This document shows, piece after piece, positions 42,917-63,934 of a stretch of DNA of 64,000 bases. The stretch covers positions 42,302 through 106,301 of the forward strand of contig DATIIY010000003.1 in the NCBI GenBank assembly GCA_035479135.1, read 5' to 3'. Numbering within the stretch: position 1 is the first letter of the stretch; each line of letters begins with the position of its first letter. The notes beneath the pieces are model-generated. The model did no database searches, was not told where the DNA came from, and saw only the letters and a program-made list of their open reading frames with translations. This DNA comes from Candidatus Saccharimonadales bacterium (GTDB taxonomy: Bacteria; Patescibacteriota; Saccharimonadia; Saccharimonadales; UBA4665). The translations under genes were made by a program, and so were the position numbers.

Positions 42917-43378
42917 TTAGCCGCCTATGGTACCGTTTTGAACATTGTTCGATTGGTTAAGCACAAAGTGCACGATGAGTTGAGCCAGAGCTACTATAAT
43001 TAGACCAATTATGGCATAAATAAGTGTATTCTTAGCGCTGCCAACACGGCCAGAATCACCACCGGAAGTAATGTAGCGGAAGCCACCATAAATTATCATG
43101 ATTACAGAAACCGCGCCAACTATGATAGAAAATATCTTAACTATATTCTGGGCGATCTTACCGATGCTACTACTATCTACATTTGTTGAGTCACAGGTAA
43201 CACTGCCAGGTTGACCAGATGCTTGACTGGCACCATCAGCCACGTTATTTGCAATATTACTAGTACAACCTTCCGCGTTCGCTACACCAAGAGTTAGCGG
43301 AACAAGTCCTGGCGCCAATAGCGAAAGCATCATTATTAGTGGCAGAAAATAGCTTTTTATTTTTTGTGTCATATTCAA
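42917..43378 (-). CDS. T4SS pilin-like protein (VirB2/TrbC-like), paralog 1 of 6
   Basis: 153 aa. Signal/anchor, a variable region with 2 Cys, then a conserved TM hairpin (IIYGGFRYITSGGDSGRVGSAKNTLIYAIIGLIIVALAQLIV). Confidence 0.7.
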   Translation of the reverse strand: MNMTQKIKSYFLPLIMMLSLLAPGLVPLTLGVANAEGCTSNIANNVADGASQASGQPGSVTCDSTNVDSSSIGKIAQNIVKIFSIIVGAVSVIMIIYGGFRYITSGGDSGRVGSAKNTLIYAIIGLIIVALAQLIVHFVLNQSNNVQNGTIGG

Positions 43379-43459
43379 ACCTTTCTTTTCGATATCTGTC
43401 AGTTTATATCTTATTTATACTACATGTTTATGTTTAAAATCAAGATCTGCACATGTATG

Positions 43460-43930
43460 CTAATTCTTTACACATTTATTGGCTGATGAATCAAAATGTT
43501 GATTAACGCCACAATTATTTGTAACATTTGTTGACTGTGTAAGGATGAATGTAACCAGTAATTGAGCCAAAACTGCTATTGCCAGCCCAATTAATGCATA
43601 TATCAGAGTATTTTTGGCTGAACTTATCCTAGCAGAATCTCCACCGGATGTAATATATCTTAAACCGCTGTAGATTATCATAATTATTGCTGCCGCCCCG
43701 GTTATTATGCTTAGAATTTTCACTGCAGCACTAATTGTATTCGTAACACCGCTCCCATTACAGGTGTCGCCCGTTTCGCCAACACCGTTTAAAACTTGGT
43801 CTTTAGACGTTCCGGATGTTCCTCCACAAGCATAAGCCGATATTGGAGAGCTTAAATTGAGTCCAACTAGAGCTGTTAATAACAAGGCAGTTGGGATAAA
43901 AATTCGACGAAGATTATTTAAAAATTTCAT
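43460..43930 (-). CDS. T4SS pilin-like protein, paralog 2 of 6
   Basis: The start is trimmed to MKFLNNLRR, preceded by TAGGAG. Core IIYSGLRYITSGGDSARISSAKNTLIYALIGLAIAVLAQLLV. It has an extra C-terminal tail with a Cys pair. Confidence 0.7.
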   Translation of the reverse strand: MKFLNNLRRIFIPTALLLTALVGLNLSSPISAYACGGTSGTSKDQVLNGVGETGDTCNGSGVTNTISAAVKILSIITGAAAIIMIIYSGLRYITSGGDSARISSAKNTLIYALIGLAIAVLAQLLVTFILTQSTNVTNNCGVNQHFDSSANKCVKN

Positions 43931-43937
43931 ATAACTC

Positions 43938-44333
43938 CTAAAGTTTATTAACAACATAAGTTATTAAGCTCGACGCTAAAGCGATCACAAGTAGTCCAAT
44001 TATTGCCCCTGTTAGAGTGCTTTTGGCAGTGCCCACAGCATTGCTGTCCCCACCAGAAGTTATATATCGCAAGCCACTAATTATTATTAAAATCACTGCT
44101 GCTGCACCGGCGATATAGGCCACAATTTGGGTAATATCGTATAGCAAGCCGTTACTGCCGGAGATGGGGTCACTGGAGGTTTTGTCCTGGCAGACTGCAG
44201 AGGTTTTGTTAGTGCTGTCGCTACAATTAATTCCCGAGGGACCTCCAAAAGGGTCAAAAGCTAAAGCAGTTGTTGGCGTAGCAATAAAACATAGGCAAAG
44301 TAACATAATTGAACATAATAGTCGTCGTATCAT
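43938..44333 (-). CDS. T4SS pilin-like protein, paralog 3 of 6
   Basis: 131 aa. Signal peptide ending ALA-FD, 2 Cys, and core IISGLRYITSGGDSNAVGTAKSTLTGAIIGLLVIALA. Confidence 0.7.
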   Translation of the reverse strand: MIRRLLCSIMLLCLCFIATPTTALAFDPFGGPSGINCSDSTNKTSAVCQDKTSSDPISGSNGLLYDITQIVAYIAGAAAVILIIISGLRYITSGGDSNAVGTAKSTLTGAIIGLLVIALASSLITYVVNKL

Positions 44334-44626
44334 CCTACACGACTCCCCACGAAGAAAACTATTGATTCAGCTGCAATGGCGATAGTCAATCCAACTAATG
44401 AATAAACAATGCCATTCTTAGCCTTAGAAATCTTCTGCGGATCACCGGCAGCCACAATGTAACGCAGGCCTGATATGGTAATCATCAGAAGTGCCAAGGC
44501 ACCGGCAACTCCGAAAGCAATACCCAAAACCGTTGGAATAAATGAACCACCGCTAGTTACGTCAGGGTGTGGTAGACTGCGGCCACTGATTTCAGTACTA
44601 ACGATGGTGTTTATTATTGTTTCCAT
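44330..44626 (-). CDS. T4SS pilin-like protein, paralog 4 of 6
   Basis: 98 aa with no Cys. Core ISGLRYIVAAGDPQKISKAKNGIVYSLVGLTIAIAA. Has a 4-nt overlap with the next gene. Confidence 0.65.
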   Translation of the reverse strand: METIINTIVSTEISGRSLPHPDVTSGGSFIPTVLGIAFGVAGALALLMITISGLRYIVAAGDPQKISKAKNGIVYSLVGLTIAIAAESIVFFVGSRVG

Positions 44627-44627
44627 T

Positions 44628-45032
44628 TTATGACAGTTTATTACCTATAAATGATACTACAGCCACTGAAACCATGGCTATCGCCATCCCAATTAAGGCA
44701 TTTATAACGGTGCCTTGGGCTCTAGCAGTAGCCTCCGGATCACCCTGACTGGCAATGTACTTTATGGCTCCATAAAATACGAAGGCCACGGCCACAATTC
44801 CGGCAATGCGTAGTAAATCATCAACGACAGCCAACAAAATCAGAGGTAAATCACTGCCGCCAGCCGAGATAAAATTAAAGTTGGTATTTATGTTGCAAGC
44901 ATAAGTTACGCCGTTAACTGTTACTCCAAAATCTTTGTCAGGCAAGTAATGATACCAAGTTACCAGACCAAAGAAATCATGCCGACAACCAGCTGGAGCA
45001 GAAGCAAAATATAATAATTGCAGCCAAATCAT
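44628..45032 (-). CDS. T4SS pilin-like protein, paralog 5 of 6
   Basis: 134 aa. FFGLVTWYHYLP motif and core FYGAIKYIASQGDPEATARAQGTVINALIGMAIAMVS. Confidence 0.62.
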   Translation of the reverse strand: MIWLQLLYFASAPAGCRHDFFGLVTWYHYLPDKDFGVTVNGVTYACNINTNFNFISAGGSDLPLILLAVVDDLLRIAGIVAVAFVFYGAIKYIASQGDPEATARAQGTVINALIGMAIAMVSVAVVSFIGNKLS

Positions 45033-45051
45033 AATTTATACCTGCGTTTAT

Positions 45052-45621
45052 TCAATGTAAAAATCCTCCCGGCACTAAGAATTGCAAAAATCCGTATAAC
45101 AATGCGTAAGCGAAGATTGCGATAATCGTACCACTAATTCTATTCTTGGCGGATGAGGCCTTCTGCGGGTCACCTTCAGAAGTCGAAAATTGAATACCGC
45201 CAATAATCAATGAAATTACAGCAATTAAACCAAATATCGCTGTCAACAAATTAATTCCAGGATTAATGTACTTGGCTATCAGATCGCAGCTGTCAGCTGA
45301 GCAGTCGACCGCCGGGTCAGTGCCATCACCAATATCCCAACCTTGCTTACAACTGGTGCGCAAATTCTTATCCGGATAAGCAGAGGTGCTGCAAGCGCTA
45401 GTTTTAGATGTACCGCCAGCTTGGGCTTTCCACCCATGTTCGCAGGCTGCCTCATTGTCACCGCTTAGATTTAGCGGACTGCAAGCATTGCAAGCATTGG
45501 GGCTACCGCTTTTTGAGCAATCGGGGCTGGCAGACACAACTGACAAAGGCGCGATGAAAAACAAAGCCAAAAACAGAATTAAACTGCGTGCAAAATATGG
45601 CTTCAATATTTTTTGTATCAT
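45052..45621 (-). CDS. T4SS pilin-like protein with a Cys-rich ectodomain, paralog 6 of 6
   Basis: 189 aa. Signal peptide, a roughly 95-aa region with 10 Cys, then core IIGGIQFSTSEGDPQKASSAKNRISGTIIAIFAYALL. Confidence 0.62.
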   Translation of the reverse strand: MIQKILKPYFARSLILFLALFFIAPLSVVSASPDCSKSGSPNACNACSPLNLSGDNEAACEHGWKAQAGGTSKTSACSTSAYPDKNLRTSCKQGWDIGDGTDPAVDCSADSCDLIAKYINPGINLLTAIFGLIAVISLIIGGIQFSTSEGDPQKASSAKNRISGTIIAIFAYALLYGFLQFLVPGGFLH

Positions 45622-45707
45622 CTAGTAATGTTTAATTTTACGAATGTCTAAATCTATTATGTGGCTCCATATGCAAAAAAACAAGAGTACCGAAGTCTAA
45701 CCACTTA

Positions 45708-45716
45708 TGGTATATT
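45708..45716 (+). promoter_or_regulatory. candidate extended -10 promoter element for the T4SS operon
   Basis: TGGTATATT (a TGn + TATAAT-like element) ends 30 nt upstream of the ATG at 45746. No good -35. Confidence 0.35.
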
Positions 45717-45745
45717 GGTTAAGGTAATCTTTCAAAGATAAAAAC

Positions 45746-48568
45746 ATGTGGCGTAGACTGATCTACTTATTCCCCGTTGTACTGATCCTTGCTACTATTG
45801 GCGTGAATATTGTCCAGTCACCGAATGCCTTGGCTGCCACAACAGCAACAAGTTATTGCGACTCACAAGGTTTTGCTTCAAAAACTGGTGAGGATTACAA
45901 AGCCTGCCAGCACGGTTTCAACGGCAAAGTAGCTGGCACCAGCCAACAAGCAAGTTGTAAAAATGAAGGCGGTTCTGCCACAAACCAAGGTGATCCCAAG
46001 TATATATGTTATGTAGCTTGGTCGGTCGCAACAGTAGGCAATAAACCCGCACCAGTAGTCCAACCATATAAAAGTCCATCTGCTGCAGCTAAAAAAGCTT
46101 GCACTGGCTCAGACTCCCCAGTTTCAGGTGGAGATGCTGGTACGATTAATGCTTGTGAGCGCGGATATGATGGTGGCAAAAGCGGTAAAACACAGAGCCA
46201 AGCCTGTAGTGTCCTGGTCGGCGAATCAAAAACTACGGGCAATGCTGATGAATGCGGTATAGGTTGGGATCTGGCAACAGGCGCCCCAATTCCGGGTGCC
46301 AGCTCTAGAGGCAGCGGGAGTACTGGCAGTGGTAGCGATGCTTCTGCTGCTGCACCTACATTGGGCTGCGATACCAAGTTTACCAATCCGCTGACCTGGA
46401 TTATTTGTCCCGTTACGGATGTATTAGTACAAATTGTTGGCGCAATTGATAACGCCATTACTAACCAATTAAATATAAAAACAGATGCAATTTTTTGTAC
46501 AGATACTGATACTTGCCAAGCCTACTATTCAGCCTGGCAATCGTTTAGAAATATCGCTCTTGGTCTAATGGCCATCGCTGGTCTTATTATTGTAATTGCC
46601 CAAGCATTAGGTGTGGAGGTACTAGATGCCTACACTATTCGCAAAACATTACCAAGATTGCTAATTGTAGCAGTTGCAATAACGCTCTCATGGCCATTAA
46701 TGAAATTTCTGATTGATCTATCTGATGATTTGGGTTTTGGAGTTAGACATCTTATATATGCGCCATTTTCTCATTTGGGATCTGGACTTAATTTAGACTT
46801 TGGTGGAAATGCCGCCAATATATTCTTCGGTGGTTTGGGTTTTGCGGCAGTAACCGGAGCTGGTGTAGGAGCGGCGGCTTTTACCCTATTAGGCGGGATA
46901 GGTGCGCTTCTAGGTTATGCAGGTACGGCCGCTTTGGCAGTTTTCGTGGCAATCGTTGTGCTGATATTAAGACAAATAATAATAATTTTATTAATGCTTT
47001 TGGCTCCTGTAGCTTTGGTTGCTTACATCTTGCCTAATACTCAAAGGATTTATAGATTATGGGGTGATACTTTTCTGAGAGCACTTCTGATGTTTCCATT
47101 AATCTCAGCTCTAATAGCTACCGGTAGAGTATTTTCAGCTGTAGCAATTCATAATGGAGGGGCATTAAACCAACTGATTGGATTTGCAGCTTATTTTGCG
47201 CCATATTTCTTGATACCCTTGACTTTCAGAATGTCAGGTGCTGCTATTAATGGTGTTGGTAGCTTTGTAAATAGCCGAGCACAAGGTGGTTTCGAAGGAC
47301 TTCGCAAATTCCGCACCACCCGACGGCAGAAAGGCAGAGAACGAATATTGTCAGGCAATCTATTTAATAAGGCGCGAGAGGGTTCATACCGTCAAAAATT
47401 AAATCAGGCTTATCAGTCTGGTGGTTTGGGTTTGGCCAATACTGACCGGATGGGTAGTAACCCAATGAAATGGCGCAGAAATGCTCAACAATTACGCGAA
47501 ACAGCAAACCTGAATAACGCAGATAAGCTATTACAGTCAGAAGAATTTAAACCGTACGTGGGAGATGACGACTTTGCTAAGGCTGCCATGAACAGTGGCG
47601 GTAGCGTTGATAGCTTTAAGCGATACCTCAGAGAAACAGGTAAATTCAGTAACGCTGATATTGAACAAAAGGGTACCGGTTTTGAAATTATGCAGAGGAA
47701 ATTTGGTACACCTGCCCTTGAACAAGGTGCCTTTCAGAGTGCCCTTACAGCTAGCACGTTTCTTGCACCTGGGCAATCAGGCGAATTGCTTGATTATATT
47801 GATAAGCTATCTGGTGGCCGGTCTCAAACCCAAGCACAGCTAATTGCTAAAGCCAAAGACCTTGCTCCAAAAGCTGGCCGTGGAGATGTAGTAGCACCGT
47901 TTAGTGATATGATGGGGCAACTGAAGACAATTGGCGCAGCAACAACCCCTGCAGCCAGGGCAGCAGCTATACGCAATGCCTCCGAATTCCTTGCAGACAC
48001 TAACGAAGATGTAGAAGGTTCTGCCTACTGGTTTACCGGCAAGGGTAGAATGACTGAAGCCGGCATTCCTGCGATTCAACGTAAAATAAAGCGTGCTGCC
48101 AGTAATGTCGCAGCCATTAATCAAAACAACGGCCAACCTATAACAATAACTAGGTTAAACGGAAAGCAAGAAGTGTTGACTGAGGACCAGGCTCATAGAG
48201 AAATGAAACAAGTACTGGCTCAGGTTGCCGGTACATCAGACGTTTTACAGCAGGTATCGCCTGAGAAGCAGCGCCTGTTTGCCGAAGGTGTTCTTTCATG
48301 GCAAATCCCAGGTTTTAAATCTAATGTTATTCAAAATATCGACGACTTTAGTACCGATCCAGAATTTACTGAAACACGTAGCCGCTATGAGAGAAACATG
48401 GCGCAATCGATGCAAAGATCAGCTCAAGCGGAACAAGCAGCAGCACAAGCCGGAGCCAATATGACACCTGCGCAACGAGCTGCGTCAGAAGCTGCAGCGG
48501 CACAGGCAGCGGCAGACGCTGCCAGACAAATGGGCGGCGGTGATCCTAATGTCGGAGGACAACTGTAA
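45746..48568 (+). CDS. extended VirB6/TrbL-like polytopic membrane protein
   Basis: 940 aa. Signal peptide, a roughly 190-aa Cys-rich ectodomain, about 7-8 TM helices (residues about 215-500), and a roughly 440-aa soluble C-terminal extension ending in an Ala/Gln-rich tail. The call rests on architecture and operon position (first gene before PrgI/VirB4). Confidence 0.6.
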   Translation: MWRRLIYLFPVVLILATIGVNIVQSPNALAATTATSYCDSQGFASKTGEDYKACQHGFNGKVAGTSQQASCKNEGGSATNQGDPKYICYVAWSVATVGNKPAPVVQPYKSPSAAAKKACTGSDSPVSGGDAGTINACERGYDGGKSGKTQSQACSVLVGESKTTGNADECGIGWDLATGAPIPGASSRGSGSTGSGSDASAAAPTLGCDTKFTNPLTWIICPVTDVLVQIVGAIDNAITNQLNIKTDAIFCTDTDTCQAYYSAWQSFRNIALGLMAIAGLIIVIAQALGVEVLDAYTIRKTLPRLLIVAVAITLSWPLMKFLIDLSDDLGFGVRHLIYAPFSHLGSGLNLDFGGNAANIFFGGLGFAAVTGAGVGAAAFTLLGGIGALLGYAGTAALAVFVAIVVLILRQIIIILLMLLAPVALVAYILPNTQRIYRLWGDTFLRALLMFPLISALIATGRVFSAVAIHNGGALNQLIGFAAYFAPYFLIPLTFRMSGAAINGVGSFVNSRAQGGFEGLRKFRTTRRQKGRERILSGNLFNKAREGSYRQKLNQAYQSGGLGLANTDRMGSNPMKWRRNAQQLRETANLNNADKLLQSEEFKPYVGDDDFAKAAMNSGGSVDSFKRYLRETGKFSNADIEQKGTGFEIMQRKFGTPALEQGAFQSALTASTFLAPGQSGELLDYIDKLSGGRSQTQAQLIAKAKDLAPKAGRGDVVAPFSDMMGQLKTIGAATTPAARAAAIRNASEFLADTNEDVEGSAYWFTGKGRMTEAGIPAIQRKIKRAASNVAAINQNNGQPITITRLNGKQEVLTEDQAHREMKQVLAQVAGTSDVLQQVSPEKQRLFAEGVLSWQIPGFKSNVIQNIDDFSTDPEFTETRSRYERNMAQSMQRSAQAEQAAAQAGANMTPAQRAASEAAAAQAAADAARQMGGGDPNVGGQL

Positions 48569-48621
48569 GCGTACATTGGTAATTGACTTAGCTTCATATT
48601 TATGCTATAATTTAAGGTGTT

Positions 48622-49881: not shown

Positions 49882-49920
49882 TACGGTTTTCAGTTAGCGA
49901 TTTGCTATACTGTTACTGTA

Positions 49921-51030: not shown

Positions 51031-51082
51031 ACGCTAAAACTAGCGTGACCCCTGATGAAAATTAAGGTGGGACAGTCGTATC

Positions 51083-52018: not shown

Positions 52019-53964
52019 TGCTGGGCCGTAAGAAGCAGCCGCCTCCCGACCCGGTAGCGATTGCCAGAGCCCAGAGAGCCCGGGAAGAAATGGAGGTTCA
52101 GGCCGCCTTCCGCAAAGGCATCACTGCACTGCGGGATTTCATAGCGCCAAGTTCACTGGAGTTCAGTAACACTCATTTCCAGATTGGTACCCGTTACGCC
52201 AGGACCTATTATGTTTACGGCTATCCCCGACAGCTTTACACCGGCTGGCTGAGTGGACTGGTTAATCTGGATGAAATTGTCGATATGAGCATGTACGTTT
52301 ATCCGGTCGAAAGTCAGGTGGTGCTGGAAAACCTGCGGAAGAAAGTTACGCAACTTGAAGCCGGTATTCAGATCGAGGCCGAGAAAGGCCGAGTCCGAGA
52401 TCCGGGCAAAGAAGCGGCCATCATGGATGCCGAAGAAATGCGCGACAAACTGCAGGTTGGCGAAGAACGGTTCTTTAGATTCGGATTGTACTTCACATTG
52501 TATGCCGGCAGTCTTGACGAGTTGGAATTTATTTCTCACAAAGTTGAATCAATGCTCGGTCAGCAGCTGGTTTATAGTAAGGCCGCCACCTCTCAGCAAG
52601 AACAGGGGCTCAACAGCACTATTCCTCAATTAGTCGACCAGTTGCAGATTCGCCGCAACATGAGTACCGGGGCACTGAGCACCAGTTTTCCGTTTACCAG
52701 TGCGGATCTGAGTCAGGAAACCGGCATCTTGTATGGCATAAATATGCACAACTCCGGCTTGGTGATTTTCGATCGTTTCTCTCTGGAAAACGGTAATTCG
52801 GTGGTCTTCGCTAAATCCGGGGCCGGCAAAAGTTTTGCTGTTAAATTAGAAGCTCTGCGCTCCATGATGTTCGGCACCGAGATATTTATCATTGACCCTG
52901 AAAACGAGTATCAGCGGATGTGCGATGCGGTAGGCGGAGCCTATGTTCGCCTGAGCCTGAATTCGGCAACCAGAATAAATCCGTTTGACTTGCCCAAAGT
53001 CGTCGATACCGAGGAAGCTGACAACGCTCTGAGGAGCAACCTGATAACGCTGCACGGTTTACTACGATTAATGATGGGCGGCGCCCAGATCCAAATGGCC
53101 GGCGCCGGCGGTGTCATGGCACCGCCGTTAGCTCCCTCAGAAGAAGCTGATCTGGACGCCGCCCTGATCGAAACCTATGCCAAAGCCGGAATAACCAACG
53201 ATCCGCTAACTCACACCGGCACCCCACCGGCCATAAACGATCTTTATGACGTTTTGCTGCACATGGGTGGCACCGGGCCACAACTGGCCCAGCGATTGCG
53301 CAAGTACACTACTGGCACCTTCGCCGGAATTTTCTCGCAGCAAAGCAATATCGATATAAATAATCCGATGGTAGTTTTCAACTTGCGTGACCTGGAGGAT
53401 GAACTACGGCCAGTAGCCATGTACATCGTACTTAATTACGTCTGGAACAAAACCAAAACCGATCAGAAACGTCGCCTAATGATAGTCGATGAAGCCTGGC
53501 AACTTATGAAGTACGAAGATTCCGCCAATTTCCTGTTTTCGCTGGCCAAGCGGGCCCGCAAATACAACCTTGGGATCACCACGGTAACTCAGGATGTCGA
53601 GGATTTCATGGGCTCGCGGATGGGACGGGCAATTGTCGCCAACGCTTCCATGCAGTTTCTGATGAAACAGTCGCCTTCAGCCGTTGACGTTTTAACGGAT
53701 GTGTTCAAATTAACAGAGGAGGAGCGTAAACGGCTAAGTCAGTTCCCGGTCGGTCAGGGACTGTTTTTCGCCGGCCAAAACCACGTTCACATTCAAGTTG
53801 TGGCCAGTCCTACCGAAACCGGCCTGATCACTACCAACCCGGAAGAGGTTCAACAGATAGCGGCGGCCGAAGCCAGCGGCGAATTTGACCAGGCGCAGGG
53901 CACAATCGATTTAAACAATCGGCTAACGCCCGGCAGCACCGGCAATACGGCCAGTAGCGTATAA
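52018..53964 (+). CDS. virB4: VirB4-family type IV secretion ATPase
   Basis: 648 aa. Walker A FAKSGAGKSFAVK, Walker B RRLMIVDEAWQLM, and GITTVTQDVEDF. The upstream part (FIAPSSLEFSNTHFQIGTRYARTYYVYGYPRQ) is typical of the VirB4 middle region. Confidence 0.9.
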   Translation: MLGRKKQPPPDPVAIARAQRAREEMEVQAAFRKGITALRDFIAPSSLEFSNTHFQIGTRYARTYYVYGYPRQLYTGWLSGLVNLDEIVDMSMYVYPVESQVVLENLRKKVTQLEAGIQIEAEKGRVRDPGKEAAIMDAEEMRDKLQVGEERFFRFGLYFTLYAGSLDELEFISHKVESMLGQQLVYSKAATSQQEQGLNSTIPQLVDQLQIRRNMSTGALSTSFPFTSADLSQETGILYGINMHNSGLVIFDRFSLENGNSVVFAKSGAGKSFAVKLEALRSMMFGTEIFIIDPENEYQRMCDAVGGAYVRLSLNSATRINPFDLPKVVDTEEADNALRSNLITLHGLLRLMMGGAQIQMAGAGGVMAPPLAPSEEADLDAALIETYAKAGITNDPLTHTGTPPAINDLYDVLLHMGGTGPQLAQRLRKYTTGTFAGIFSQQSNIDINNPMVVFNLRDLEDELRPVAMYIVLNYVWNKTKTDQKRRLMIVDEAWQLMKYEDSANFLFSLAKRARKYNLGITTVTQDVEDFMGSRMGRAIVANASMQFLMKQSPSAVDVLTDVFKLTEEERKRLSQFPVGQGLFFAGQNHVHIQVVASPTETGLITTNPEEVQQIAAAEASGEFDQAQGTIDLNNRLTPGSTGNTASSV

Positions 53965-54003
53965 TTAAACCATTAGTGTTATAGGGGTACAGCGGAAACA
54001 AAC

Positions 54004-57000
54004 ATGGCAACACCCGCCAATCAAAGAGACCCGGTCTATGATGATGACCGATCGCCAGAACCGGTTAGACAACCCGATCTACGCCGGCTAGAAGGCATCG
54101 GAGGTAACACTGCCGGCGGTGGCACACGGGGTGCCAGCAGCAGCACGGGATCACAAGGAGGTGGCGCCTCTAATTCCACCAAAGCTTCGGCAGGCGGAGC
54201 CAGCGATCAAACCGGCGACACATCGGCCAAGCTAAATAACGCTGAAGAATCTACAGGCGACAACGATGACGAAGATGACGACAGTGACCGTGTTGGCAAA
54301 GGCTACACAGGCAACAACAATTCCACCAGCAGAGGCCGCGTCCGATTCCGGCTCACCCGAAAAAAAGCCGCCGTAGGCATCGGCTCCGTAGCTATAATTT
54401 CCGGGGTTATTGGCTTTTTTTCTATATCTACCGGCCCGCTGGAATTTATCCATATCGCTCAACTATTAGACCGCTTCCACTTCTCCAGCCAACAAGACGC
54501 CGAAGACGGCAGGTTAACTAAAATGGCCCGCTACCTGCATGACACCAATAAGCCGCAAAACACGCGGCTTGGACTTGTAGGCAATTCTGTAGCATCCAAG
54601 CTTGAAACTAAAATTAAAGACGCGACCGGATTAGAGCCGGAATTCAATGAAAAGTCTGGTAGATTCGTTGGTTATAATGGCGACCGGGCTCATGAAAACT
54701 TTAAAGGCAAGTCGGAAGCTGAGATAAAAAGTCAGATAGCAAACCAGACCGGTATTGATGGGATTAAAGTTTCTTTTTCTTCGGATGGCAAATCGTTCAG
54801 CTATAATCCTGACGCAGGTATACGCAATCCCGTTACTGCTTATAGAGTCCAGACTCGCACTGCGCGGGCCCAGCTGAGCGAGGCTGGATTATCCAAAGTT
54901 TCCCAACATGTCGGAAGCAGAATTCTAAGAACTCGAGCTGGGTGGACATTTCACCCCATCAAAAAGGCAGATGCAGCCCTTCAAGCCAAAGCTATCGAAA
55001 AGGGTGCCAAAGCTTATGAGCAATTCAAAGAAAAGCTAAAGCAGCAGTTTAACAAAGACGAAACGGCCTATATAGAAAACGGAGCAGTTGAAAAACCCGG
55101 CGGAGATCCCACTCGACAAAAAGAAACCGATACTAGTGGTAAAACCGTGGACACACCTGGATCGCAAGATACACAAGCGGGTGTAAATGGTGTTAAATCC
55201 GACACTCAAGGTGAAGACCCGGCAAATCCGCAAACTGTGGAGGATGCCAAAACCAGCCTAAAAGCCAAGGTTGGAGCCGGGGGTGCCAGTTTAATTGGGG
55301 TGATCTGCGTAATGAACAGCATTAATCATGAGATGCCGCAATTACGACAAGAAAAAGTTATGCTGCCGATGATGAGAATGGCTGGTGAAGCCATAAGTGT
55401 TGGCAGTCAAGTCCAGAGTGGACAAGACATTAGTGCTCTTCAACTTGGATTTTACAAGGACCAACTTGATGGTACAGATAGTACTGGCAAGACCTCCACT
55501 TGGAATCAAGCCCAAAGTATTCAAGCCGAGTTAGGGCAACCGCAATCCGGTACGGATGTACCAAAAGAAGGTCAAGTATTTAACGGAGATGTGCCTTTTG
55601 GCTTTTTGCAAGGTTCGATAGTAGATTCGGTTTGTGGTATTTTGGGAAGCACTTTTGGCCAGATTTTCTCGATTGTCACTGGACCAATCAGCTTCATTGC
55701 TTCGGCTATTACTGTCGGCCCAGCTACAAGCATTCTGGCAAACTGGTTATCCGGAGCCCCCATAAGTCCTTTGGCTGCCGGCGCAGACCGAGGAAATTAT
55801 ATTAATTACGGTGCGCGTTTGTCGGCCAATCAACAATATGCGTCAGCTGGTGGTGTACCGATGAACTCCAGCGATGAAGGGCAAGTGACTGCGATAGATA
55901 ACAGCTTCGATATGGCCGATTTCCAATCTCATGGTCTGGCTTATAGGCTTTTTAATACAAAAGATAGTCGTAGTTTAGTATCGCATTTGATTGATAGTGA
56001 GAGCGCTTCCGGACCAGTAGATAATATAGCAACTATGGTTCAGCACTTTGGTAGTATCTTCGGAGCTGCCTCAAGAGTGCCGGCCAGTCTATTATCGGGG
56101 GTCACTCATGCTGCTGGAACGACTTACAATTGGCATGGTCTCAATAAAATCGGTTTCACAGCAAGTGAATTAGGCAATCCTAGCGTCGATAACCCTTTTG
56201 ACAATGCCTGCCTTGTAGCAGGCGGTAACTGTAAATTAGCAAATGGTACGCTTGAACATACGGGTATTCTTGACGGCTCAAACGGTCAGCACTATATTGA
56301 TCTTGCCCACACTTGTTTCAATGCTACTATCACCAACGACCCCTCCACAGGTTGGCAAATCAATAATGCCAGCTCACTAAATCAAGAAGACGATAACTAT
56401 CGATCGCATGCTATTGAGTGCAGCAGCGATAGCGACGGGAACTGGTTACGTGTACGTTTCTGGTTACTCGACACAGCAACCATAGAAGGCTACGACTGTT
56501 ATCAAGGCGATACAGACACATCCGACCAATCTTGTAACGATGTCGGCGTCACACAGTCCAGTACAGCATCCGTATCAGCCGGGTCAAGCGATATCAGCGC
56601 TTATCAAAACCCTCTTCGGGATGTGATGAAAAACGGCAGCTTATTCCCACGACGCATAGATGAAGGCGTCGATTACGGGGGTCATGGCCCGATTTATGCC
56701 ATGGGCAACGGCGTAGTCACTTTTGCCGGTACTGGAGAATGGTTTGCTGCTTACGGCCAGTCGGTTGTTTATACATTAAGTGATGGCCCGGCTGCTGGAA
56801 AAAGCGTTTATTTCTCAGAAAGCTGTACTCCGACCGTCAAGGCCGGTGATCACGTTACTCCTTCAACCGTAATATGTAATATGAATGGAGATAACAGTCC
56901 TTGGATTGAAACAGGATGGGCGGTTGGAGGTACAGCCAATCAGGATATCCCATCGGCTCATATAGGTTACAATGAGTGCGCAACAGTATATGGAGCTAAC

Positions 57001-57096
57001 TATTCTGACCTTCTCAAAAAACTAGGTGCTCCCGGCGGAAAAATCGAGTGTGGCGGACCTGACGAGACACTGCCGGCAGGATGGCCGAAATGGTGA
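54004..57096 (+). CDS. large T4SS-associated membrane protein with a C-terminal degenerate LytM/M23-like domain
   Basis: 1030 aa. A 110-aa Gly/Ser/Asp-rich N-terminus, a TM (AAVGIGSVAIISGVIGFFSI), and further hydrophobic segments near residues 430 and 540-580. The C-terminal stretch IDEGVDYGGHGPIYAMGNGVVTFAG...VKAGDHVTPSTVI resembles the M23 barrel but lacks the HxxxD/HxH metal ligands. Confidence 0.5.
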   Translation: MATPANQRDPVYDDDRSPEPVRQPDLRRLEGIGGNTAGGGTRGASSSTGSQGGGASNSTKASAGGASDQTGDTSAKLNNAEESTGDNDDEDDDSDRVGKGYTGNNNSTSRGRVRFRLTRKKAAVGIGSVAIISGVIGFFSISTGPLEFIHIAQLLDRFHFSSQQDAEDGRLTKMARYLHDTNKPQNTRLGLVGNSVASKLETKIKDATGLEPEFNEKSGRFVGYNGDRAHENFKGKSEAEIKSQIANQTGIDGIKVSFSSDGKSFSYNPDAGIRNPVTAYRVQTRTARAQLSEAGLSKVSQHVGSRILRTRAGWTFHPIKKADAALQAKAIEKGAKAYEQFKEKLKQQFNKDETAYIENGAVEKPGGDPTRQKETDTSGKTVDTPGSQDTQAGVNGVKSDTQGEDPANPQTVEDAKTSLKAKVGAGGASLIGVICVMNSINHEMPQLRQEKVMLPMMRMAGEAISVGSQVQSGQDISALQLGFYKDQLDGTDSTGKTSTWNQAQSIQAELGQPQSGTDVPKEGQVFNGDVPFGFLQGSIVDSVCGILGSTFGQIFSIVTGPISFIASAITVGPATSILANWLSGAPISPLAAGADRGNYINYGARLSANQQYASAGGVPMNSSDEGQVTAIDNSFDMADFQSHGLAYRLFNTKDSRSLVSHLIDSESASGPVDNIATMVQHFGSIFGAASRVPASLLSGVTHAAGTTYNWHGLNKIGFTASELGNPSVDNPFDNACLVAGGNCKLANGTLEHTGILDGSNGQHYIDLAHTCFNATITNDPSTGWQINNASSLNQEDDNYRSHAIECSSDSDGNWLRVRFWLLDTATIEGYDCYQGDTDTSDQSCNDVGVTQSSTASVSAGSSDISAYQNPLRDVMKNGSLFPRRIDEGVDYGGHGPIYAMGNGVVTFAGTGEWFAAYGQSVVYTLSDGPAAGKSVYFSESCTPTVKAGDHVTPSTVICNMNGDNSPWIETGWAVGGTANQDIPSAHIGYNECATVYGANYSDLLKKLGAPGGKIECGGPDETLPAGWPKW

Positions 57097-58844
57097 GACG
57101 CACTTTATTATTACTAGCTTCAAGTGCATTTATAATTGTCCATTGTGCTTCGGCATTTGCAATGTCCGATACTCAAGCAAAATTGTTCCGTGAAAATATT
57201 AATTACTTTGATTCCGACGCTTGCGGTGCTAGTTCTTCTAGTAGTGTTACAGCCGGATCGGGCGCACCGGATGGTGCGACGTTTCCAAATTTAGACCCAA
57301 ACTCAATGGCAACCTCTATAGATAATTTTATTCAAAAAGAGAATTCAAACAGCGCGCTAAAGGGCCTTGGTTCTACGATTGTAGCCAGCGCTAAAAACTC
57401 GAATGTCAATCCGTTCTTAATAGTCGCTATTGCTCATAAAGAGTCAGGGCTAGCAGATCCGTCTGACTTTAATGTGAGTCATGGCAATAACTCTTTTGGC
57501 CGAGAAGCCACAAATAGCCAACCACATTTTGTTGGGAGTCATTTATGGTACAAGTGGTCATCTGTTAAGGCTAGCGTGGATTATACTGCTCCGGAAAACA
57601 AAGGAGCATCTGGCGGCGGAGACATGGCTACTTATTTGCGTACACAATATAACAGTTCAATTGATAAAAGCGATCTTGTTTCATTAATAATGCAATACGC
57701 CCCGCCTTCTGAAAACGATACCGCTCAATATACTAGTGACGTAAAAAGCTGGATAAAGGATATGGTAAGCGGTTCTAGTGGAGCAAGTTCTAGCACGTCG
57801 AGCTCATCAACAGCTAACACATGCGCATGCAACGGTTCAAGTACAGATCTTTCAGGTAGTGATAATCAGGAGAAGATATTTAATTACTTCATTGGAAAGG
57901 GGCTAAGTCCAGCTCAATCAGCCGGAATTGATGGTAATTTTGGCCAGGAATCAGGCTGGGATCCAAATGATAGTAATGGTTATTTAGGTCAGTGGGGAGG
58001 TAGTAGATTAACTGCCCTTGAGACCTTTGCCCAAAATCAAGGTACTCCGGTTAATGACTTGGGTGTGCAGCTTGATTATGTATGGTTGGAGTTAACTAAT
58101 GGTTCAGGTGCCGGTGAAGATGACTCAAAGGTATTAAGCGACTTGAAAAAAACAACCACTGCCACTGACGCGGCAACAATATTCAGTAAAGAGTACGAAA
58201 GACCCGGTGATCCCCAACTCCAAAATCGCATAGATTATGCAAATAATATTTTAAATAAATATGGCGGTAATTCCGCCGCGGGAGGTGGTACGGCGTCGAT
58301 GGGATGTAGCAATAGTGTAACTTGTACGAGTGGTGTTCCTGCAGGTACTAACGGTCTCAGTACAGTTCGGCAAAATGCCGTCTGCATTGCTCAACAGGAA
58401 TTGGCCTTATGGGATAGTAGAAAAATGACACCTGGTTTTCGTCCAAACTCATCTAATAGTTATACTAAATATAGCCAGAATGTTGAGGAGGAGTGGTGTG
58501 CAGATTTTGTAAGTTGGGTATACAATCAAGCTAACTTTCCTCTGCAAACAGGCTCTACTTGGCGCGTGCCGTTTGTACCTAATATACAATCAATTGGCGA
58601 GCAAAATAAAAACTTCCATTGGCATCCAGCAACCGCAGCGTACAATCCGAAGCCTGGTGATATTGCAATTCATGGCGATTCACACACCAATATTGTTACT
58701 GAGGTAAATGGCACTGCTGTTACTCTAATTGGGGGGGATCAGCATGCTGCGCCGCCAGGAGCTCCCAATGGTACAAGTGTAAGCAAGTATCAAATCTCCA
58801 GTTTTACTGGTGATGGAACCACAGGATACGTTTCACCGGACTAA
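57081..58844 (+). CDS. multidomain peptidoglycan hydrolase (VirB1/PrgK analogue): glucosaminidase-like + lysozyme2-like + CHAP
   Basis: 587 aa with a signal peptide. NPFLIVAIAHKESGL...GNNSFGRE is GH73/FlgJ-like. GLSPAQSAGIDGNFGQESGWDP...GQWGG is phage-tail-lysozyme-like. The C-terminal EWCADFVSWVY...GDIAIHGDSHTNIV is a CHAP Cys/His pair. Confidence 0.75.
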   Translation: MAEMVRRTLLLLASSAFIIVHCASAFAMSDTQAKLFRENINYFDSDACGASSSSSVTAGSGAPDGATFPNLDPNSMATSIDNFIQKENSNSALKGLGSTIVASAKNSNVNPFLIVAIAHKESGLADPSDFNVSHGNNSFGREATNSQPHFVGSHLWYKWSSVKASVDYTAPENKGASGGGDMATYLRTQYNSSIDKSDLVSLIMQYAPPSENDTAQYTSDVKSWIKDMVSGSSGASSSTSSSSTANTCACNGSSTDLSGSDNQEKIFNYFIGKGLSPAQSAGIDGNFGQESGWDPNDSNGYLGQWGGSRLTALETFAQNQGTPVNDLGVQLDYVWLELTNGSGAGEDDSKVLSDLKKTTTATDAATIFSKEYERPGDPQLQNRIDYANNILNKYGGNSAAGGGTASMGCSNSVTCTSGVPAGTNGLSTVRQNAVCIAQQELALWDSRKMTPGFRPNSSNSYTKYSQNVEEEWCADFVSWVYNQANFPLQTGSTWRVPFVPNIQSIGEQNKNFHWHPATAAYNPKPGDIAIHGDSHTNIVTEVNGTAVTLIGGDQHAAPPGAPNGTSVSKYQISSFTGDGTTGYVSPD

Positions 58845-58848
58845 AAAT

Positions 58849-59622
58849 ATGAATTTAACTCAACTAATTAAACCTATTGTTTTCATAGCACTCGTTTTAT
58901 TAGCGGTATTCTTGGCATTTGAATTTATTACATCCCGGCACTTTCATGTTGTAGGAACTAACCCGAAAACAAACAAAGTTGCCACGGTCTCGCCTTTCAT
59001 AAAAATAAAGTTCAATAAACCATTGTCTAAAAAGGGCGTTTCAATTAATTCAAGTTATTCAATAATAAAATCTTATAACATTCAAGATAAAACACTGGTA
59101 ATTACTCTTAAAACCCCTATGACACAAGGGTATAATTATTTTATAAGGATTAAATCAATTGCTGATCTTGATGGCGACACAATTGTAAATCAGGTATTCT
59201 CGTTTACGCCAAAATACATAAGCCCCCAGGATTTACCAAAAGATCAGCAACGGGCTTTACTTCAGTTGCAAACAAATCACCCTAAATCACAAGGTGATGT
59301 GCAATATGTGGGTTTTAGCGATTTAACAAATTATGGGGTAGCAAGTGATCAAGTTGCTAATATAGAACAGTTTGCTTACACTTTTGCGCCACATGCACAT
59401 ACAATTTCTATTGATCCTTCTAGCATTATGCCGGTTCCCCACAACCGTAATAGTTCAAGTACTTCCGACACAGTTAATTTCTTAATGGATGTTGACTCAA
59501 CTGCTTATAAAGCAAAAATTGTCTATTCTAATTTAAACAGTGAGGTCAGACTATATTTATTTGATTCTAATACTGGCGGGCAAGTATTTGACTCTAATGC
59601 TCCACCCAAGATATTTGATTAG
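58849..59622 (+). CDS. membrane-anchored protein with an Ig-like domain (last gene of the T4SS operon)
   Basis: The start is trimmed to MNLTQLIKPIVFIALVLLAVFLAF, 4 nt after the previous stop. SPFIKIKFNKPLSKKGVSI...KTLVITLKTPMTQGYNYFIRIKSIADLDGDTI resembles SbsA/Big_5-type Ig-like domains. Confidence 0.5.
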   Translation: MNLTQLIKPIVFIALVLLAVFLAFEFITSRHFHVVGTNPKTNKVATVSPFIKIKFNKPLSKKGVSINSSYSIIKSYNIQDKTLVITLKTPMTQGYNYFIRIKSIADLDGDTIVNQVFSFTPKYISPQDLPKDQQRALLQLQTNHPKSQGDVQYVGFSDLTNYGVASDQVANIEQFAYTFAPHAHTISIDPSSIMPVPHNRNSSSTSDTVNFLMDVDSTAYKAKIVYSNLNSEVRLYLFDSNTGGQVFDSNAPPKIFD

Positions 59623-60688: not shown

Positions 60689-60716
60689 TCTGACTATTAT
60701 ATTGGTTTTATTTGTC

Positions 60717-63924: not shown

Positions 63925-63934
63925 AAATTTACGA

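What the first reader, a model, noticed from the sequence alone, without database searches (positions are those of the whole stretch)
42917..59622. Chromosomal type IV secretion-like machine with no coupling protein or relaxase, wedged against recF/oriC
A 16.7-kb locus encodes the minimal Gram-positive-style T4SS parts list. It has six VirB2-like pilins, an extended VirB6-like polytopic protein, a PrgI/VirB3-like protein, a VirB4 ATPase, a PrgK/VirB1-like multi-hydrolase, a 1030-aa membrane protein and an Ig-like anchored protein. No second (VirD4/FtsK-like) ATPase, relaxase, integrase, replication or partition gene occurs in the locus or anywhere else in the 64-kb window. The right flank is recF-dnaN-dnaA, with only 7 nt to the recF stop, and the left flank is hsp20, comFC and tRNAs. 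This argues against a conjugative element and for a domesticated, core-genome secretion or contact apparatus. T4SS-like gene sets have been noted in Saccharibacteria/CPR genomes, but their substrate and role are unresolved, so this is the best candidate for a poorly described system in the window. Several of its genes (48622-49881, 54004-57096, 58849-59622) have no recognisable family.
Basis: partly seen in the sequence, partly recalled or inferred. Interest (0 to 1): 0.78.

Follow-up and report, generated by a model that had tools for sequence, protein, structure and literature searches.

The report
Saccharibacterial chromosomal type IV secretion locus
This is the origin-adjacent, non-conjugative type IV secretion gene cluster that all close relatives of this tiny epibiotic bacterium carry; it is real and biologically intriguing, but it was already described and shown to be essential in a cultured relative.

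Summary
Window 42917-59622 holds six VirB2-like pilin genes on the minus strand. Diverging from them is a nine-gene plus-strand operon: extended VirB6-like, a 419-aa accessory gene, PrgI/VirB3, TrsD-like, VirB4, a ~1000-aa membrane protein, a three-domain cell-wall hydrolase and a small anchored Ig-like protein. No coupling ATPase, relaxase or integrase is in the 64 kb. The operon ends 7 nt from recF-dnaN-dnaA, and the replication origin lies just beyond.

The organism is an uncultured Saccharimonadales bacterium. The gene order, flanks included, matches Southlakia epibionticum ML1 SEML1_0001-0022, whose T4SS genes are essential for growth on its host (Wang 2023). The relaxase-free, dnaA-proximal Patescibacteria T4SS was surveyed in 2025.

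Small additions from 80 related genomes:
- recF follows the locus in 57/57 informative loci.
- VirB4 is more conserved than DnaA, DnaN and RecF although synonymous sites are saturated.
- The pilin paralogues keep their order in 26/27 arrays.
- The VirB6-PrgI gap is a variable slot, and the 419-aa gene is its occupant here.
- The ~1000-aa protein carries a swappable C-terminal wall-hydrolase module.

The substrate and the direction of transport remain unknown.

The parts
42917..43378 (-). VirB2-like pilin 1: signal/anchor plus two TM helices. It belongs to the distal, expansion-prone pil1-3 group.
   Evidence: Pfam T4SS_pilin E 2.6e-16, 59.9 bits. Topology. NCBIfam Mbov_0395 pilin-like hit, E 5e-7, below cut-off. 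Positional orthologues in relatives.
43460..43957 (-). VirB2-like pilin 2, 45% identical to pilin 1.
   Evidence: Pfam T4SS_pilin E 2.4e-12. Paralogue alignment.
43938..44333 (-). VirB2-like pilin 3.
   Evidence: Pfam T4SS_pilin E 5.5e-11; TrbC E 5.6e-6.
44330..44626 (-). VirB2-like pilin 4: short, with no long ectodomain. Its position is conserved across relatives.
   Evidence: Pfam T4SS_pilin E 1.8e-11. NCBIfam NF045849 E 1.1e-8. Colinearity in 26/27 arrays.
44628..45032 (-). VirB2-like pilin 5, in a conserved position.
   Evidence: Pfam T4SS_pilin E 8.7e-8, 32.6 bits against a 26.6 cut-off..
45052..45621 (-). VirB2-like pilin 6, with a long Cys-rich ectodomain (8 Cys). It is always the pilin next to the VirB6-like gene.
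   Evidence: Pfam T4SS_pilin E 2e-8. Cys count. Position.
45622..45745 (.). 124-nt divergent intergenic region between the pilin operon and the main operon; presumed divergent promoters.
   Evidence: Sequence. Only weak consensus matches. Inference.
45746..48568 (+). Extended VirB6-like protein: signal/anchor, Cys-rich ectodomain (~30-205), about six TM helices (216-468) and a ~470-aa hydrophilic C-terminal region.
   Evidence: Precomputed Pfam PF19590 TrbL_3 on the identical product. TrbL PF04610 in 5/44 orthologues, best E 1e-4. Top five Foldseek-PDB hits are TrwI/VirB6. Topology.
48622..49881 (+). Accessory gene in the variable slot between VirB6-like and PrgI. 419 aa, pI 10.1, no TM helix or signal peptide, with its own promoter-like site at 48583-48611.
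   Evidence: No Pfam, NCBIfam or PDB family. Only 36 relatives among 1.84 billion representatives. Four of the five relatives found in the related loci lie between the VirB6-like gene and PrgI; the fifth (L012) lies upstream of PrgI with no VirB6-like gene identified. The slot is empty in 27 of 58 related loci. Promoter-like site.
49921..51030 (+). PrgI/VirB3-like protein: two TM helices plus a ~275-aa C-terminal extension.
   Evidence: Pfam PrgI E 5.9e-11, 43.2 bits against 27. Topology.
51083..52018 (+). TrsD-like protein resembling the N-terminal domain of VirB4. Its stop overlaps the virB4 start (TAATG).
   Evidence: NCBIfam TrsD E 7.4e-6. VirB4 CD1110 model positions 2-100, E 5.4e-5, whereas the 648-aa VirB4 covers model positions 174-733. 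Junction. 72% median identity across relatives.
52018..53964 (+). VirB4 ATPase, the only T4SS ATPase in the window.
   Evidence: NCBIfam conju_CD1110, 356 bits against 325. Pfam TraG P-loop E 1.6e-28. PDB 4ag5 E 7e-47. 84-92% identity in 80 species.
54004..57096 (+). ~1000-aa membrane protein: disordered N-terminus, TM at ~121-146, large exported body and a C-terminal wall-hydrolase-type module, M23-like here.
   Evidence: Pfam Peptidase_M23 E 1.9e-4, 22 bits, below cut-off. Topology. The body forms one BLAST cluster of 67 orthologues, while the last 200 aa form 17 clusters.
57081..58844 (+). Secreted three-domain peptidoglycan hydrolase (glucosaminidase-like, lysozyme, CHAP); VirB1/PrgK analogue.
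   Evidence: Pfam Phage_lysozyme2 E 2.5e-31, CHAP E 1.3e-7, Glucosaminidase E 0.007. Signal peptide.
58849..59622 (+). Small N-terminally anchored Ig-like protein in a variable position next to recF.
   Evidence: Pfam Big_5 E 1.2e-4, 23.2 bits against 23.6. TM helix. Recognisable in only 14 of 80 loci.
42418..42897 (+). Context: hsp20, the conserved left neighbour of the pilin array.
   Evidence: Pfam HSP20 E 2.9e-17. Present in 32 of the 80 loci (all that reach that far to the left), ~80% identical.
59630..63488 (-). Context: recF, dnaN and dnaA, convergent with the main operon.
   Evidence: Pfam for recF. tblastn synteny, 57/57 loci.
63531..63655 (.). Context: cluster of four DnaA-box-like 9-mers between dnaA and rpmH; the probable oriC.
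   Evidence: 4 of the window's 16 one-mismatch TTATCCACA matches lie in 125 nt. rpmH is read at 63788-63925.

Best explanation
This is the chromosomal, vertically inherited type IV secretion system of Saccharimonadia, a class of Patescibacteria. It is the orthologue of the Southlakia epibionticum ML1 cluster SEML1_0004-0019 and sits between hsp20 and recF-dnaN-dnaA, about 4 kb from oriC.

Shown here:
- The parts list is six VirB2-like pilins, an extended VirB6, PrgI/VirB3, TrsD followed by VirB4 (TrsD stop overlapping the virB4 start), and two wall-hydrolase proteins.
- It derives from the monoderm (MPF-FATA) conjugation machinery.
- It has no relaxase, coupling ATPase, integrase or att sites in the window.
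- Its context is fixed across at least 57 related species.

Inferred mechanism:
- VirB4 is held at the membrane by PrgI/VirB3 and works with TrsD. It extracts pilins from the membrane and polymerises them on a VirB6 platform. This is the VirD4-independent pilus-building half of a T4SS.
- The six pilin paralogues are ancient, keep their positions and are individually essential in ML1. They therefore probably build one heteromeric fibre or conduit and are not interchangeable antigenic variants.
- The lysozyme/CHAP enzyme and the ~1000-aa protein with a lineage-specific C-terminal hydrolase module open peptidoglycan, so the structure can cross the epibiont's wall and probably the actinobacterial host's wall.
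- The fibre then serves the epibiont-host interface, by effector export or by uptake of host molecules.

The direction of transport and the cargo are not determined. The 419-aa gene is a lineage-specific occupant of a variable slot, not a core subunit.
For: Family assignments:
-.

Same gene order, domain content and flanks as ML1:
- Table S2 of PMC10633639.

Essentiality in ML1:
- SEML1_0004-0010 and 0013-0019 are called essential.
- Slot gene 0012 is not essential, and 0011 tolerates 43-46 insertions.
- comF is not essential (Table S1; text).

Phylum-wide description:
- The relaxase-free, MPF-FATA-related, dnaA-proximal T4SS with TrsD, PrgI, VirB6 and pilin arrays is described.

My own comparison of 80 species-level relatives:
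- At least 582 relatives of VirB4 were found in the genome collection.
- recF is present in 57/57 informative loci.
- VirB4 shows a median 86% identity, against DnaA 69, DnaN 68 and RecF 56, and is higher in 32/32 genomes.
- Four-fold-site identity is only 0.30-0.38 in all these genes. The conservation is therefore selection, not recent transfer.
- Pilin order is colinear in 26/27 complete arrays.
- No att-like repeats were found.
- No mobility or second-ATPase genes were found in the window. No conserved one lies within 10 kb in relatives.
Against: - No pilus or conduit has been seen, and no substrate is known. The 2024 PNAS perspective calls the role 'completely unknown'.
- A VirB8-like part was not recognised in this window. 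ML1 has an NTF2-like protein in the slot, but it is non-essential.
- The M23-like module here is sub-threshold and, by my reading, lacks the canonical His ligands. Its activity is therefore uncertain.
- Absence of a coupling protein is shown only for 64 kb.
- Orthology to ML1 rests on matching annotation tables and gene order. I had no ML1 sequences to align.
- The 80 loci were chosen by VirB4 score, which inflates VirB4 identity somewhat.
- The VirB6 structural model is low-confidence (pLDDT 58).
Confidence: 0.85

Rival explanations
1. It is an integrated conjugative element or its recent remnant. The T4SS moves DNA to other cells, and the relaxase and coupling protein are encoded elsewhere.
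For: - The parts descend from monoderm conjugation systems. VirB4 passes the CD1110 conjugal ATPase model, and TrsD and PrgI are present.
- Two tRNA-Ser genes lie 1.4 kb to the left.
- VirD4 homologues exist elsewhere in many Patescibacteria genomes.
Against: - No relaxase, integrase or T4CP is in the 64 kb.
- No att-like repeat was found.
- The chromosomal context is identical in 57/57 related species and in ML1.
- VirB4 evolves more slowly than DnaA while synonymous sites are saturated.
- Relaxases were found in only 103 Patescibacteria genomes (VirD4-type homologues in 2,918) and rarely near virB4.
- The ML1 T4CP homologue is non-essential, whereas the locus is essential.
Confidence: 0.03
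2. It is an uptake machine, comparable to Helicobacter ComB. It imports host DNA, nucleotides or other building blocks into the epibiont.
For: - Saccharibacteria generally lack nucleotide and amino-acid synthesis.
- Competence (comEC) is dispensable in ML1, yet the T4SS is essential. The PNAS perspective and the FEMS review therefore propose uptake.
- comFC is a conserved near neighbour.
Against: - comF is non-essential in ML1.
- No DNA-handling protein is encoded in the locus.
- ComB systems have no pilin array or wall hydrolases of this kind.
- This window's organism encodes arginine and carbamoyl-phosphate synthesis, so it is less auxotrophic, yet it keeps the locus intact.
- No direct evidence of import exists.
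Confidence: 0.2
3. It is a coupling-protein-independent effector exporter, as in Bordetella Ptl or Brucella VirB. It delivers proteins into or onto the host. The polymorphic C-terminal hydrolase module and the variable slot proteins would be cargo or host-range determinants.
For: - Precedents exist for T4CP-less protein export.
- The ~1000-aa protein has one conserved body but 17 C-terminal clusters. That pattern is typical of polymorphic effectors and of phage wall-piercing enzymes.
- The slot carries unrelated, fast-turning-over genes: 46 ORFs in 34 clusters.
- The 419-aa protein has no export signal and an Arg-rich C-terminus.
Against: - No translocation signal or chaperone has been identified.
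- Slot genes are dispensable in ML1 and absent from about half of the relatives. Some slot occupants are ordinary metabolic genes (AdoHcy hydrolase, PfkB kinase).
- The hydrolase module could act on the epibiont's own wall.
Confidence: 0.3

Closest known systems
Southlakia epibionticum ML1 T4SS (SEML1_0004/0006-0019; Wang et al. 2023, Cell)
   Same: Gene order and content match: dnaA, dnaN, recF, small anchored Ig-like protein(s), lysozyme+CHAP hydrolase, ~1000-aa peptidase-tailed protein, VirB4, TrsD-like, PrgI, slot, ~1000-aa VirB6-like, six PF18895 pilins, hsp20, comF, tRNA-Ser. No relaxase or coupling protein is in the cluster.
   Different: - The slot holds one 419-aa gene here, against two (0011 at ~1000 aa, and 0012, NTF2-like) in ML1.
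- The C-terminal module is M23-like here, against Hedgehog/DD-peptidase-like in ML1.
- One small anchored protein lies next to recF here, against two in ML1.
- This organism is an uncultured environmental lineage with arginine biosynthesis genes nearby.
- Sequence-level orthology was not tested, because no ML1 sequences were on hand.
Patescibacteria-clade T4SS as surveyed by Quinonero-Coronel et al. 2025 (Microb Genom)
   Same: MPF-FATA-related VirB4, TrsD, PrgI/VirB3, VirB6, arrays of 2-11 VirB2-like pilins with ~25% mutual identity, no relaxase, T4CP rarely nearby, and frequent proximity to dnaA/dnaN.
   Different: Nothing essential differs. This locus is one more instance. As far as I read, that survey does not describe the positional orthology of the pilin paralogues, the variable VirB6-PrgI slot, the swapped C-terminal hydrolase module or the head-on orientation.
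Monoderm conjugative T4SS (MPF-FATA: pCF10 Prg/Pcf, pGO1 Trs, CTn2 CD1110)
   Same: VirB4 of the CD1110 family (356 bits), TrsD, PrgI, a VirB6/PrgH-type polytopic protein and a multi-domain PrgK-like wall hydrolase.
   Different: - No relaxase, T4CP, oriT or adhesin was found.
- No recognisable PrgL/VirB8 was found.
- It has a VirB2-like pilin array.
- It is chromosomal, fixed next to oriC, vertically inherited and (in ML1) essential.
Mycoplasma ICE transfer apparatus (Mbov_0395 / Mbov_0397 families)
   Same: The second-best VirB4 model is Mbov_0397 (249 bits). All six pilins hit the Mbov_0395 'pilin-like conjugal transfer protein' model (E 1e-8 to 6e-4).
   Different: All pilin hits are below the model cut-off (19-35 bits against 40). 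The mycoplasma element is mobile, has a VirD4 homologue and lacks wall hydrolases. The FEMS review reads those small proteins as VirB3-like.
T4SSs without a coupling protein (Bordetella Ptl, Brucella VirB) and DNA-uptake ComB of Helicobacter
   Same: They work without a dedicated VirD4-type ATPase. They offer precedents for non-conjugative export or import.
   Different: They have a diderm architecture with VirB7/9/10 and VirB11. They have no pilin array of this kind, and they are not essential for growth.

Membership tests
VirB4-based type IV secretion system (Patescibacteria / MPF-FATA-derived) | VirB4-family ATPase | tested here: met
   NCBIfam conju_CD1110, 356 bits against a 325 cut-off. 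PDB VirB4 4ag5 E 7e-47.
VirB4-based type IV secretion system (Patescibacteria / MPF-FATA-derived) | VirB3/PrgI membrane partner adjacent to VirB4 | tested here: met
   Pfam PrgI, 43.2 bits against 27. Two TM helices.
VirB4-based type IV secretion system (Patescibacteria / MPF-FATA-derived) | VirB6/TrbL-type polytopic channel protein | tested here: met
   A precomputed PF19590 TrbL_3 hit, unmarked (E <= 1e-5), lies on the identical 940-aa product. It is corroborated by TrbL in 5/44 orthologues and by TrwI/VirB6 as the top five Foldseek hits. The local Pfam copy gave no above-threshold hit for the window protein itself.
VirB4-based type IV secretion system (Patescibacteria / MPF-FATA-derived) | TrsD (VirB4-N-terminus-like) protein next to VirB4 | tested here: inconclusive
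   NCBIfam TrsD E 7.4e-6 but 25.9 bits against a 200 cut-off. The hit to VirB4 model positions 2-100 complements the 648-aa VirB4, which covers positions 174-733. No PDB hit.
VirB4-based type IV secretion system (Patescibacteria / MPF-FATA-derived) | VirB2-like pilin array | tested here: met
   Six genes are above the PF18895 cut-off. They have VirB2 topology and are 25-45% identical to one another.
VirB4-based type IV secretion system (Patescibacteria / MPF-FATA-derived) | VirB1/PrgK-type wall hydrolase | tested here: met
   Phage_lysozyme2, 109 bits, and CHAP, 32.5 bits.
VirB4-based type IV secretion system (Patescibacteria / MPF-FATA-derived) | VirB8/PrgL-type (NTF2-like) bitopic protein | tested here: not met
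   No Pfam or NCBIfam hit in any locus protein. The 419-aa slot protein has no TM helix, and its model was unusable. The published survey also rarely finds VirB8 outside class ABY1.
Orthologue of S. epibionticum ML1 SEML1_0004-0019 | Same gene order, domain content and flanking genes | tested here: met
   Gene-by-gene match with Table S2. The sequences themselves were not compared.
Integrative conjugative element | Relaxase and coupling protein (T4CP) | tested here: not met
   None was found in the window. No conserved extra P-loop ORF lies within 10 kb in 80 relatives. The rest of the genome was not available.
Integrative conjugative element | Integrase, att repeats and patchy distribution | tested here: not met
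   No integrase. No flanking direct repeat. Same context in 57/57 loci.
Effector-translocating or DNA-uptake T4SS | Demonstrated substrate and direction of transport | not testable with these tools
   This needs experiments. The literature states that the role is unknown.

The most novel reading that the evidence does not exclude
The conserved T4SS core carries two plug-in positions that tune it to a particular host. One is the C-terminal peptidoglycan-hydrolase module of the ~1000-aa protein: M23-like here, DD-peptidase/M15-like, amidase-like or other in relatives. The other is the variable VirB6-PrgI slot. The six fixed pilin paralogues build a heteromeric, host-wall-piercing conduit. On this reading the locus would be a host-range-determining feeding or injection device and not a generic secretion system.
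Probability: 0.2. Interest if true: 0.7.

Novelty: already known. Interest (0 to 1): 0.3.

Why it matters
Patescibacteria are a large share of bacterial diversity, and they live by attaching to other microbes. This T4SS is one of the few machines shown to be essential for that lifestyle, and its cargo and direction of transport are still unknown.

This window adds no new kind of system. The comparison with 80 relatives does give concrete handles for experiments in the tractable ML1 model:
- which parts are invariant: VirB4, TrsD, PrgI, and the order of the pilins;
- which parts are swapped between lineages: the hydrolase tail, the slot genes, and the small anchored proteins next to recF.

Tried and rejected
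- AlphaFold2 of the VirB6 TM core with 12 sequences gave pLDDT 58. It is usable only as a weak pointer.
- AlphaFold2 of the 419-aa protein with 2 sequences gave pLDDT 48. It was not searched further.
- A profile search of the VirB6 family against PDB sequences returned only chance-level influenza HA2 hits, E about 0.01 and above.
- The C-terminus of the 1030-aa protein against PDB gave only antibody chance hits.
- TrsD against PDB gave nothing.
- The 419-aa family has no Pfam or PDB relative.
- The similarity between the Cys-rich ectodomains of pilin 6 and the VirB6-like protein (E 1e-5 and 3e-4; E 3e-5 without signal peptides) is not recurrent. It reached E < 1e-3 in 0 of 31 related genomes. 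I therefore do not treat it as a shared module of the system.
- A search for att-like repeats found only the mutual similarity of the two tRNA-Ser genes.
- Promoter and terminator scans were barely above shuffles: 42 against 31 +/- 5, and 21 against 19.
- Walker-A matches in unannotated neighbours were scattered chance hits in the ~1000-aa proteins.
- PDB sequence searches of three other C-terminal module types gave only weak amidase_2 hits for one of them.
- PF19590 is not returned by the local Pfam copy. That assignment therefore rests on the precomputed table.

Full report
**What is in the sequence**

On the minus strand, 42917-45621 holds six small genes. Each has a signal/anchor segment and two C-terminal transmembrane helices. 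Each is above the Pfam cut-off for T4SS_pilin PF18895. They are 25-45% identical to one another and share a core G-L-R-Y-I-T-S-G-G-D...A-K-N.

Across a 124-nt gap, a plus-strand operon runs from 45746 to 59622 with gaps of -16 to 53 nt. Its nine genes are:
- A 940-aa protein with a signal/anchor, a Cys-rich ectodomain, about six TM helices and a ~470-aa hydrophilic tail.
- A 419-aa basic protein without TM helices.
- PrgI/VirB3 (Pfam 43.2 bits against 27).
- A 311-aa protein that hits NCBIfam TrsD (E 7e-6) and the first 100 positions of VirB4 models.
- VirB4, which passes NCBIfam conju_CD1110 (356 against 325 bits, covering model positions 174-733) and matches PDB 4ag5 (E 7e-47).
- A 1030-aa membrane protein with a sub-threshold M23-like C-terminus.
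- A secreted hydrolase with glucosaminidase-like, lysozyme and CHAP domains.
- A small anchored protein with a near-threshold Ig-like Big_5 hit.

The TrsD stop overlaps the virB4 start (TAATG). TrsD and VirB4 thus look like a split VirB4 that is translationally coupled.

**The VirB6 assignment**

The window protein gave no hit in the local Pfam copy. Three independent weak-to-moderate lines agree, however:
- The collection's precomputed table lists PF19590 TrbL_3, unmarked (E <= 1e-5), on this exact 940-aa product and on its homologues.
- TrbL PF04610 is the only family hit by more than one of the 44 orthologues (5 members, best E 1e-4).
- A low-confidence AlphaFold model of the TM core (pLDDT 58) has R388 TrwI/VirB6 chains as its five best Foldseek-PDB matches, with probability 0.99-0.63 and TM-score 0.36-0.45.

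I accept the assignment.

**Surroundings**

- The operon ends 7 nt from the recF stop. recF, dnaN and dnaA follow on the minus strand.
- Four DnaA-box-like 9-mers cluster in 63531-63655, between dnaA and rpmH. That places oriC about 4 kb from the locus.
- The main operon therefore faces the leftward replication fork head-on, whereas the pilin operon runs with it. This is an inference from gene orientation.
- To the left lie hsp20, comFC and two tRNA-Ser genes.
- The other 41 kb are housekeeping genes: polA, rpoD, dnaG, argS, an arginine/carbamoyl-phosphate synthesis block, groEL, murE, tsaD and valS.
- No VirD4, relaxase, integrase, replication or partition family was found there among the ORFs of at least 100 aa scanned. 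These include every one of 180 aa or more and two shorter ones. Six ORFs of 109-164 aa that do not overlap a longer ORF were left unscanned. The unassigned ORFs gave nothing relevant either.
- No direct repeat links the tRNA flank with the recF flank.

**Organism and relatives**

The 419-aa product is recorded as a hypothetical protein of a 'Candidatus Saccharimonadales bacterium' MAG. A scan of one genome per species with VirB4 found at least 582 relatives. The best 80 are nearly all labelled Saccharibacteria/Saccharimonadia or Patescibacteria MAGs, with 84-92% identity.

The architecture is constant across them: hsp20, pilin array (4-9 pilin ORFs detected, a lower bound), VirB6-like, slot, PrgI, TrsD, VirB4, a ~800-1600-aa protein, hydrolase, variable small genes, recF, dnaN, dnaA. 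recF is present in all 57 loci that extend at least 8.5 kb past VirB4.

VirB4 (median 86% identity) and TrsD (72%) are more conserved than DnaA (69%), DnaN (68%) and RecF (56%). VirB4 exceeds all three in 32 of 32 genomes. Identity at four-fold degenerate sites is 0.30-0.38 for all these genes, which is saturation. The protein conservation therefore reflects purifying selection, not recent exchange. The loci were picked by VirB4 score, which biases that figure upward somewhat. No conserved second P-loop protein lies within 10 kb.

**What is already published**

The gene order, flanks included, matches S. epibionticum ML1 SEML1_0001-0022 in the structure-based annotation of Wang et al. 2023. 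Their Tn-seq calls 0004-0010 and 0013-0019 essential for growth on the host. The slot gene 0012 and comF are dispensable, and 0011 keeps many insertions. They already noted the pilin series and the missing coupling and relaxase proteins.

Quinonero-Coronel et al. 2025 surveyed the phylum and described:
- an MPF-FATA-related VirB4 clade;
- TrsD, PrgI and VirB6;
- pilin arrays of 2-11 genes;
- relaxases in only 103 genomes;
- T4CP homologues mostly far from virB4, including a non-essential one in ML1;
- frequent proximity to dnaA/dnaN.

A 2025 FEMS review repeats this. A 2024 perspective calls the role 'completely unknown'.

**What the comparison adds**

1. The pilin paralogues are positional orthologues. 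Labelling each pilin in 27 complete arrays by its best window paralogue gives a colinear order in 26. Pilins 4, 5 and 6 are fixed next to VirB6, and copy-number changes occur at the distal pil1-3 end. Each pilin is also essential in ML1. This favours distinct structural roles in one fibre over interchangeable variants.

2. The gap between VirB6-like and PrgI is a variable slot.
   - It is under 100 nt in 27 of 58 loci.
   - Elsewhere it holds 46 ORFs in 34 similarity clusters, some on the opposite strand. These include AdoHcy hydrolase and a PfkB kinase.
   - The window's 419-aa gene belongs to a small family: 36 relatives at E <= 1e-3 among 1.84 billion representatives.
   - Four of the five members seen in the related loci lie between the VirB6-like gene and PrgI. 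The fifth (L012) lies upstream of PrgI, where no VirB6-like gene was identified.
   - The gene has a good promoter-like site of its own and no known fold or family.
   - It is an accessory gene, not a core subunit.

3. The ~1000-aa protein after VirB4 has a homologous body and a more modular tail.
   - The body forms one single-linkage cluster of 67 proteins, with 27% of pairs at E < 1e-5.
   - The last 200 aa fall into 17 clusters of sizes 26, 16, 5, 4, 3, 2 and eleven singletons.
   - The window shares its M23-like tail with four loci.
   - 27 of the 67 tails carry an H..G.A.D motif, which I read as M15-like. ML1 is annotated as DD-peptidase-like.
   - One relative gives weak amidase_2 hits.
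   - The family names for these tails need HMM confirmation.
   - The window's M23-like tail has DEGVD and PWIETGW where I expect H..D and H.H. This is my reading of the motifs, not a tool alignment.

4. VirB4 has the highest GC3 in the window (0.59, against 0.37-0.47 for housekeeping genes). It exceeds dnaN in 58 of 60 relatives.

5. All six pilins hit the NCBIfam model for the Mycoplasma ICE 'pilin-like' protein, below cut-off. VirB2-like hairpins may therefore not be foreign to MPF-FATA systems.

**Mechanism**

Shown: the parts list, its ancestry, its fixed chromosomal position and strong selection. Essentiality in a close relative comes from the literature.

Inferred: the set VirB2, VirB3, VirB4(+TrsD), VirB6 plus hydrolases is the pilus-building subset of a T4SS and needs no VirD4. 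It most likely assembles a heteromeric fibre or short conduit through the epibiont's wall and into the host's wall. The hydrolases clear the path.

The evidence does not decide whether the structure exports effectors or imports host material. I rate export at about 0.3, import at about 0.2 and a conjugative role at about 0.03. The remainder is adhesion or an unknown role.

**Verdict**

The feature is real and correctly interpreted, but already known. This locus is one more orthologue of a described, essential Saccharimonadia T4SS. The added comparative details are modest leads, not a new system.

Noticed in passing
window 13509-22580: An arginine and carbamoyl-phosphate synthesis block is present: argB/NAGS-like, argD, argJ, argC, carA, carB. 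This is unexpected for Saccharibacteria, which are usually described as lacking amino-acid biosynthesis and as catabolising arginine.
   Followed up: no
window 63531-63655 and 63788-63925: Four DnaA-box-like 9-mers cluster in 125 nt between dnaA and rpmH, the probable oriC. It follows that the 13.9-kb main T4SS operon is transcribed head-on to the replication fork, which is unusual for an essential, highly conserved operon. The same convergent recF arrangement occurs in 57/57 relatives and in ML1.
   Followed up: partly
window 54004-57096; L001-L080 orthologues: The ~1000-aa protein after VirB4 keeps a homologous body, but its last 200 aa fall into 17 unrelated clusters. The tail is M23-like here; other tails carry an M15-like motif, are amidase_2-like, or are of other types. 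A wall-hydrolase module appears to be swapped between lineages.
   Followed up: partly
window 48569-49920; slot in L001-L080: The gap between VirB6-like and PrgI is an insertion hotspot. It is empty in 27 of 58 loci. Elsewhere it holds unrelated genes, some on the opposite strand, including AdoHcy hydrolase plus a PfkB kinase in L006, L007 and L030.
   Followed up: partly
window 52018-53964 and relatives: VirB4 has the highest third-position GC in the window (0.59). Fast-evolving locus genes have the lowest (pilin 2 and the Ig-like gene, 0.28). VirB4 GC3 exceeds dnaN GC3 in 58 of 60 related genomes. The cause is unknown; codon selection for high expression is one possibility.
   Followed up: partly
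window 42917-45621: All six pilins give sub-threshold hits to the NCBIfam Mycoplasma ICE 'Mbov_0395 pilin-like conjugal transfer protein'. VirB4's second-best model is the neighbouring Mbov_0397 family. This hints that the pilins may be native to the MPF-FATA lineage and not borrowed from diderm systems.
   Followed up: partly
window 45052-45621 and 45746-46400: Pilin 6 and the VirB6-like N-terminus share a Cys-rich motif (AC-E/Q-x-G-...-C-...-GWD), twice in the latter (E 1e-5 and 3e-4). The similarity is not seen in 31 related genomes, so it is either lineage-specific or compositional.
   Followed up: yes
window 38556-39266: A second Phage_lysozyme2-domain protein (236 aa, E 4e-19) is encoded 3.6 kb outside the locus.
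   Followed up: no
window 61815-62078; relatives: Many related loci show an 80-150-aa minus-strand ORF between dnaN and dnaA. The window has a 99-aa ORF at 61832-62131 that overlaps the dnaA end. It is probably spurious reading of the dnaA-dnaN intergenic region, but I did not examine it.
   Followed up: no
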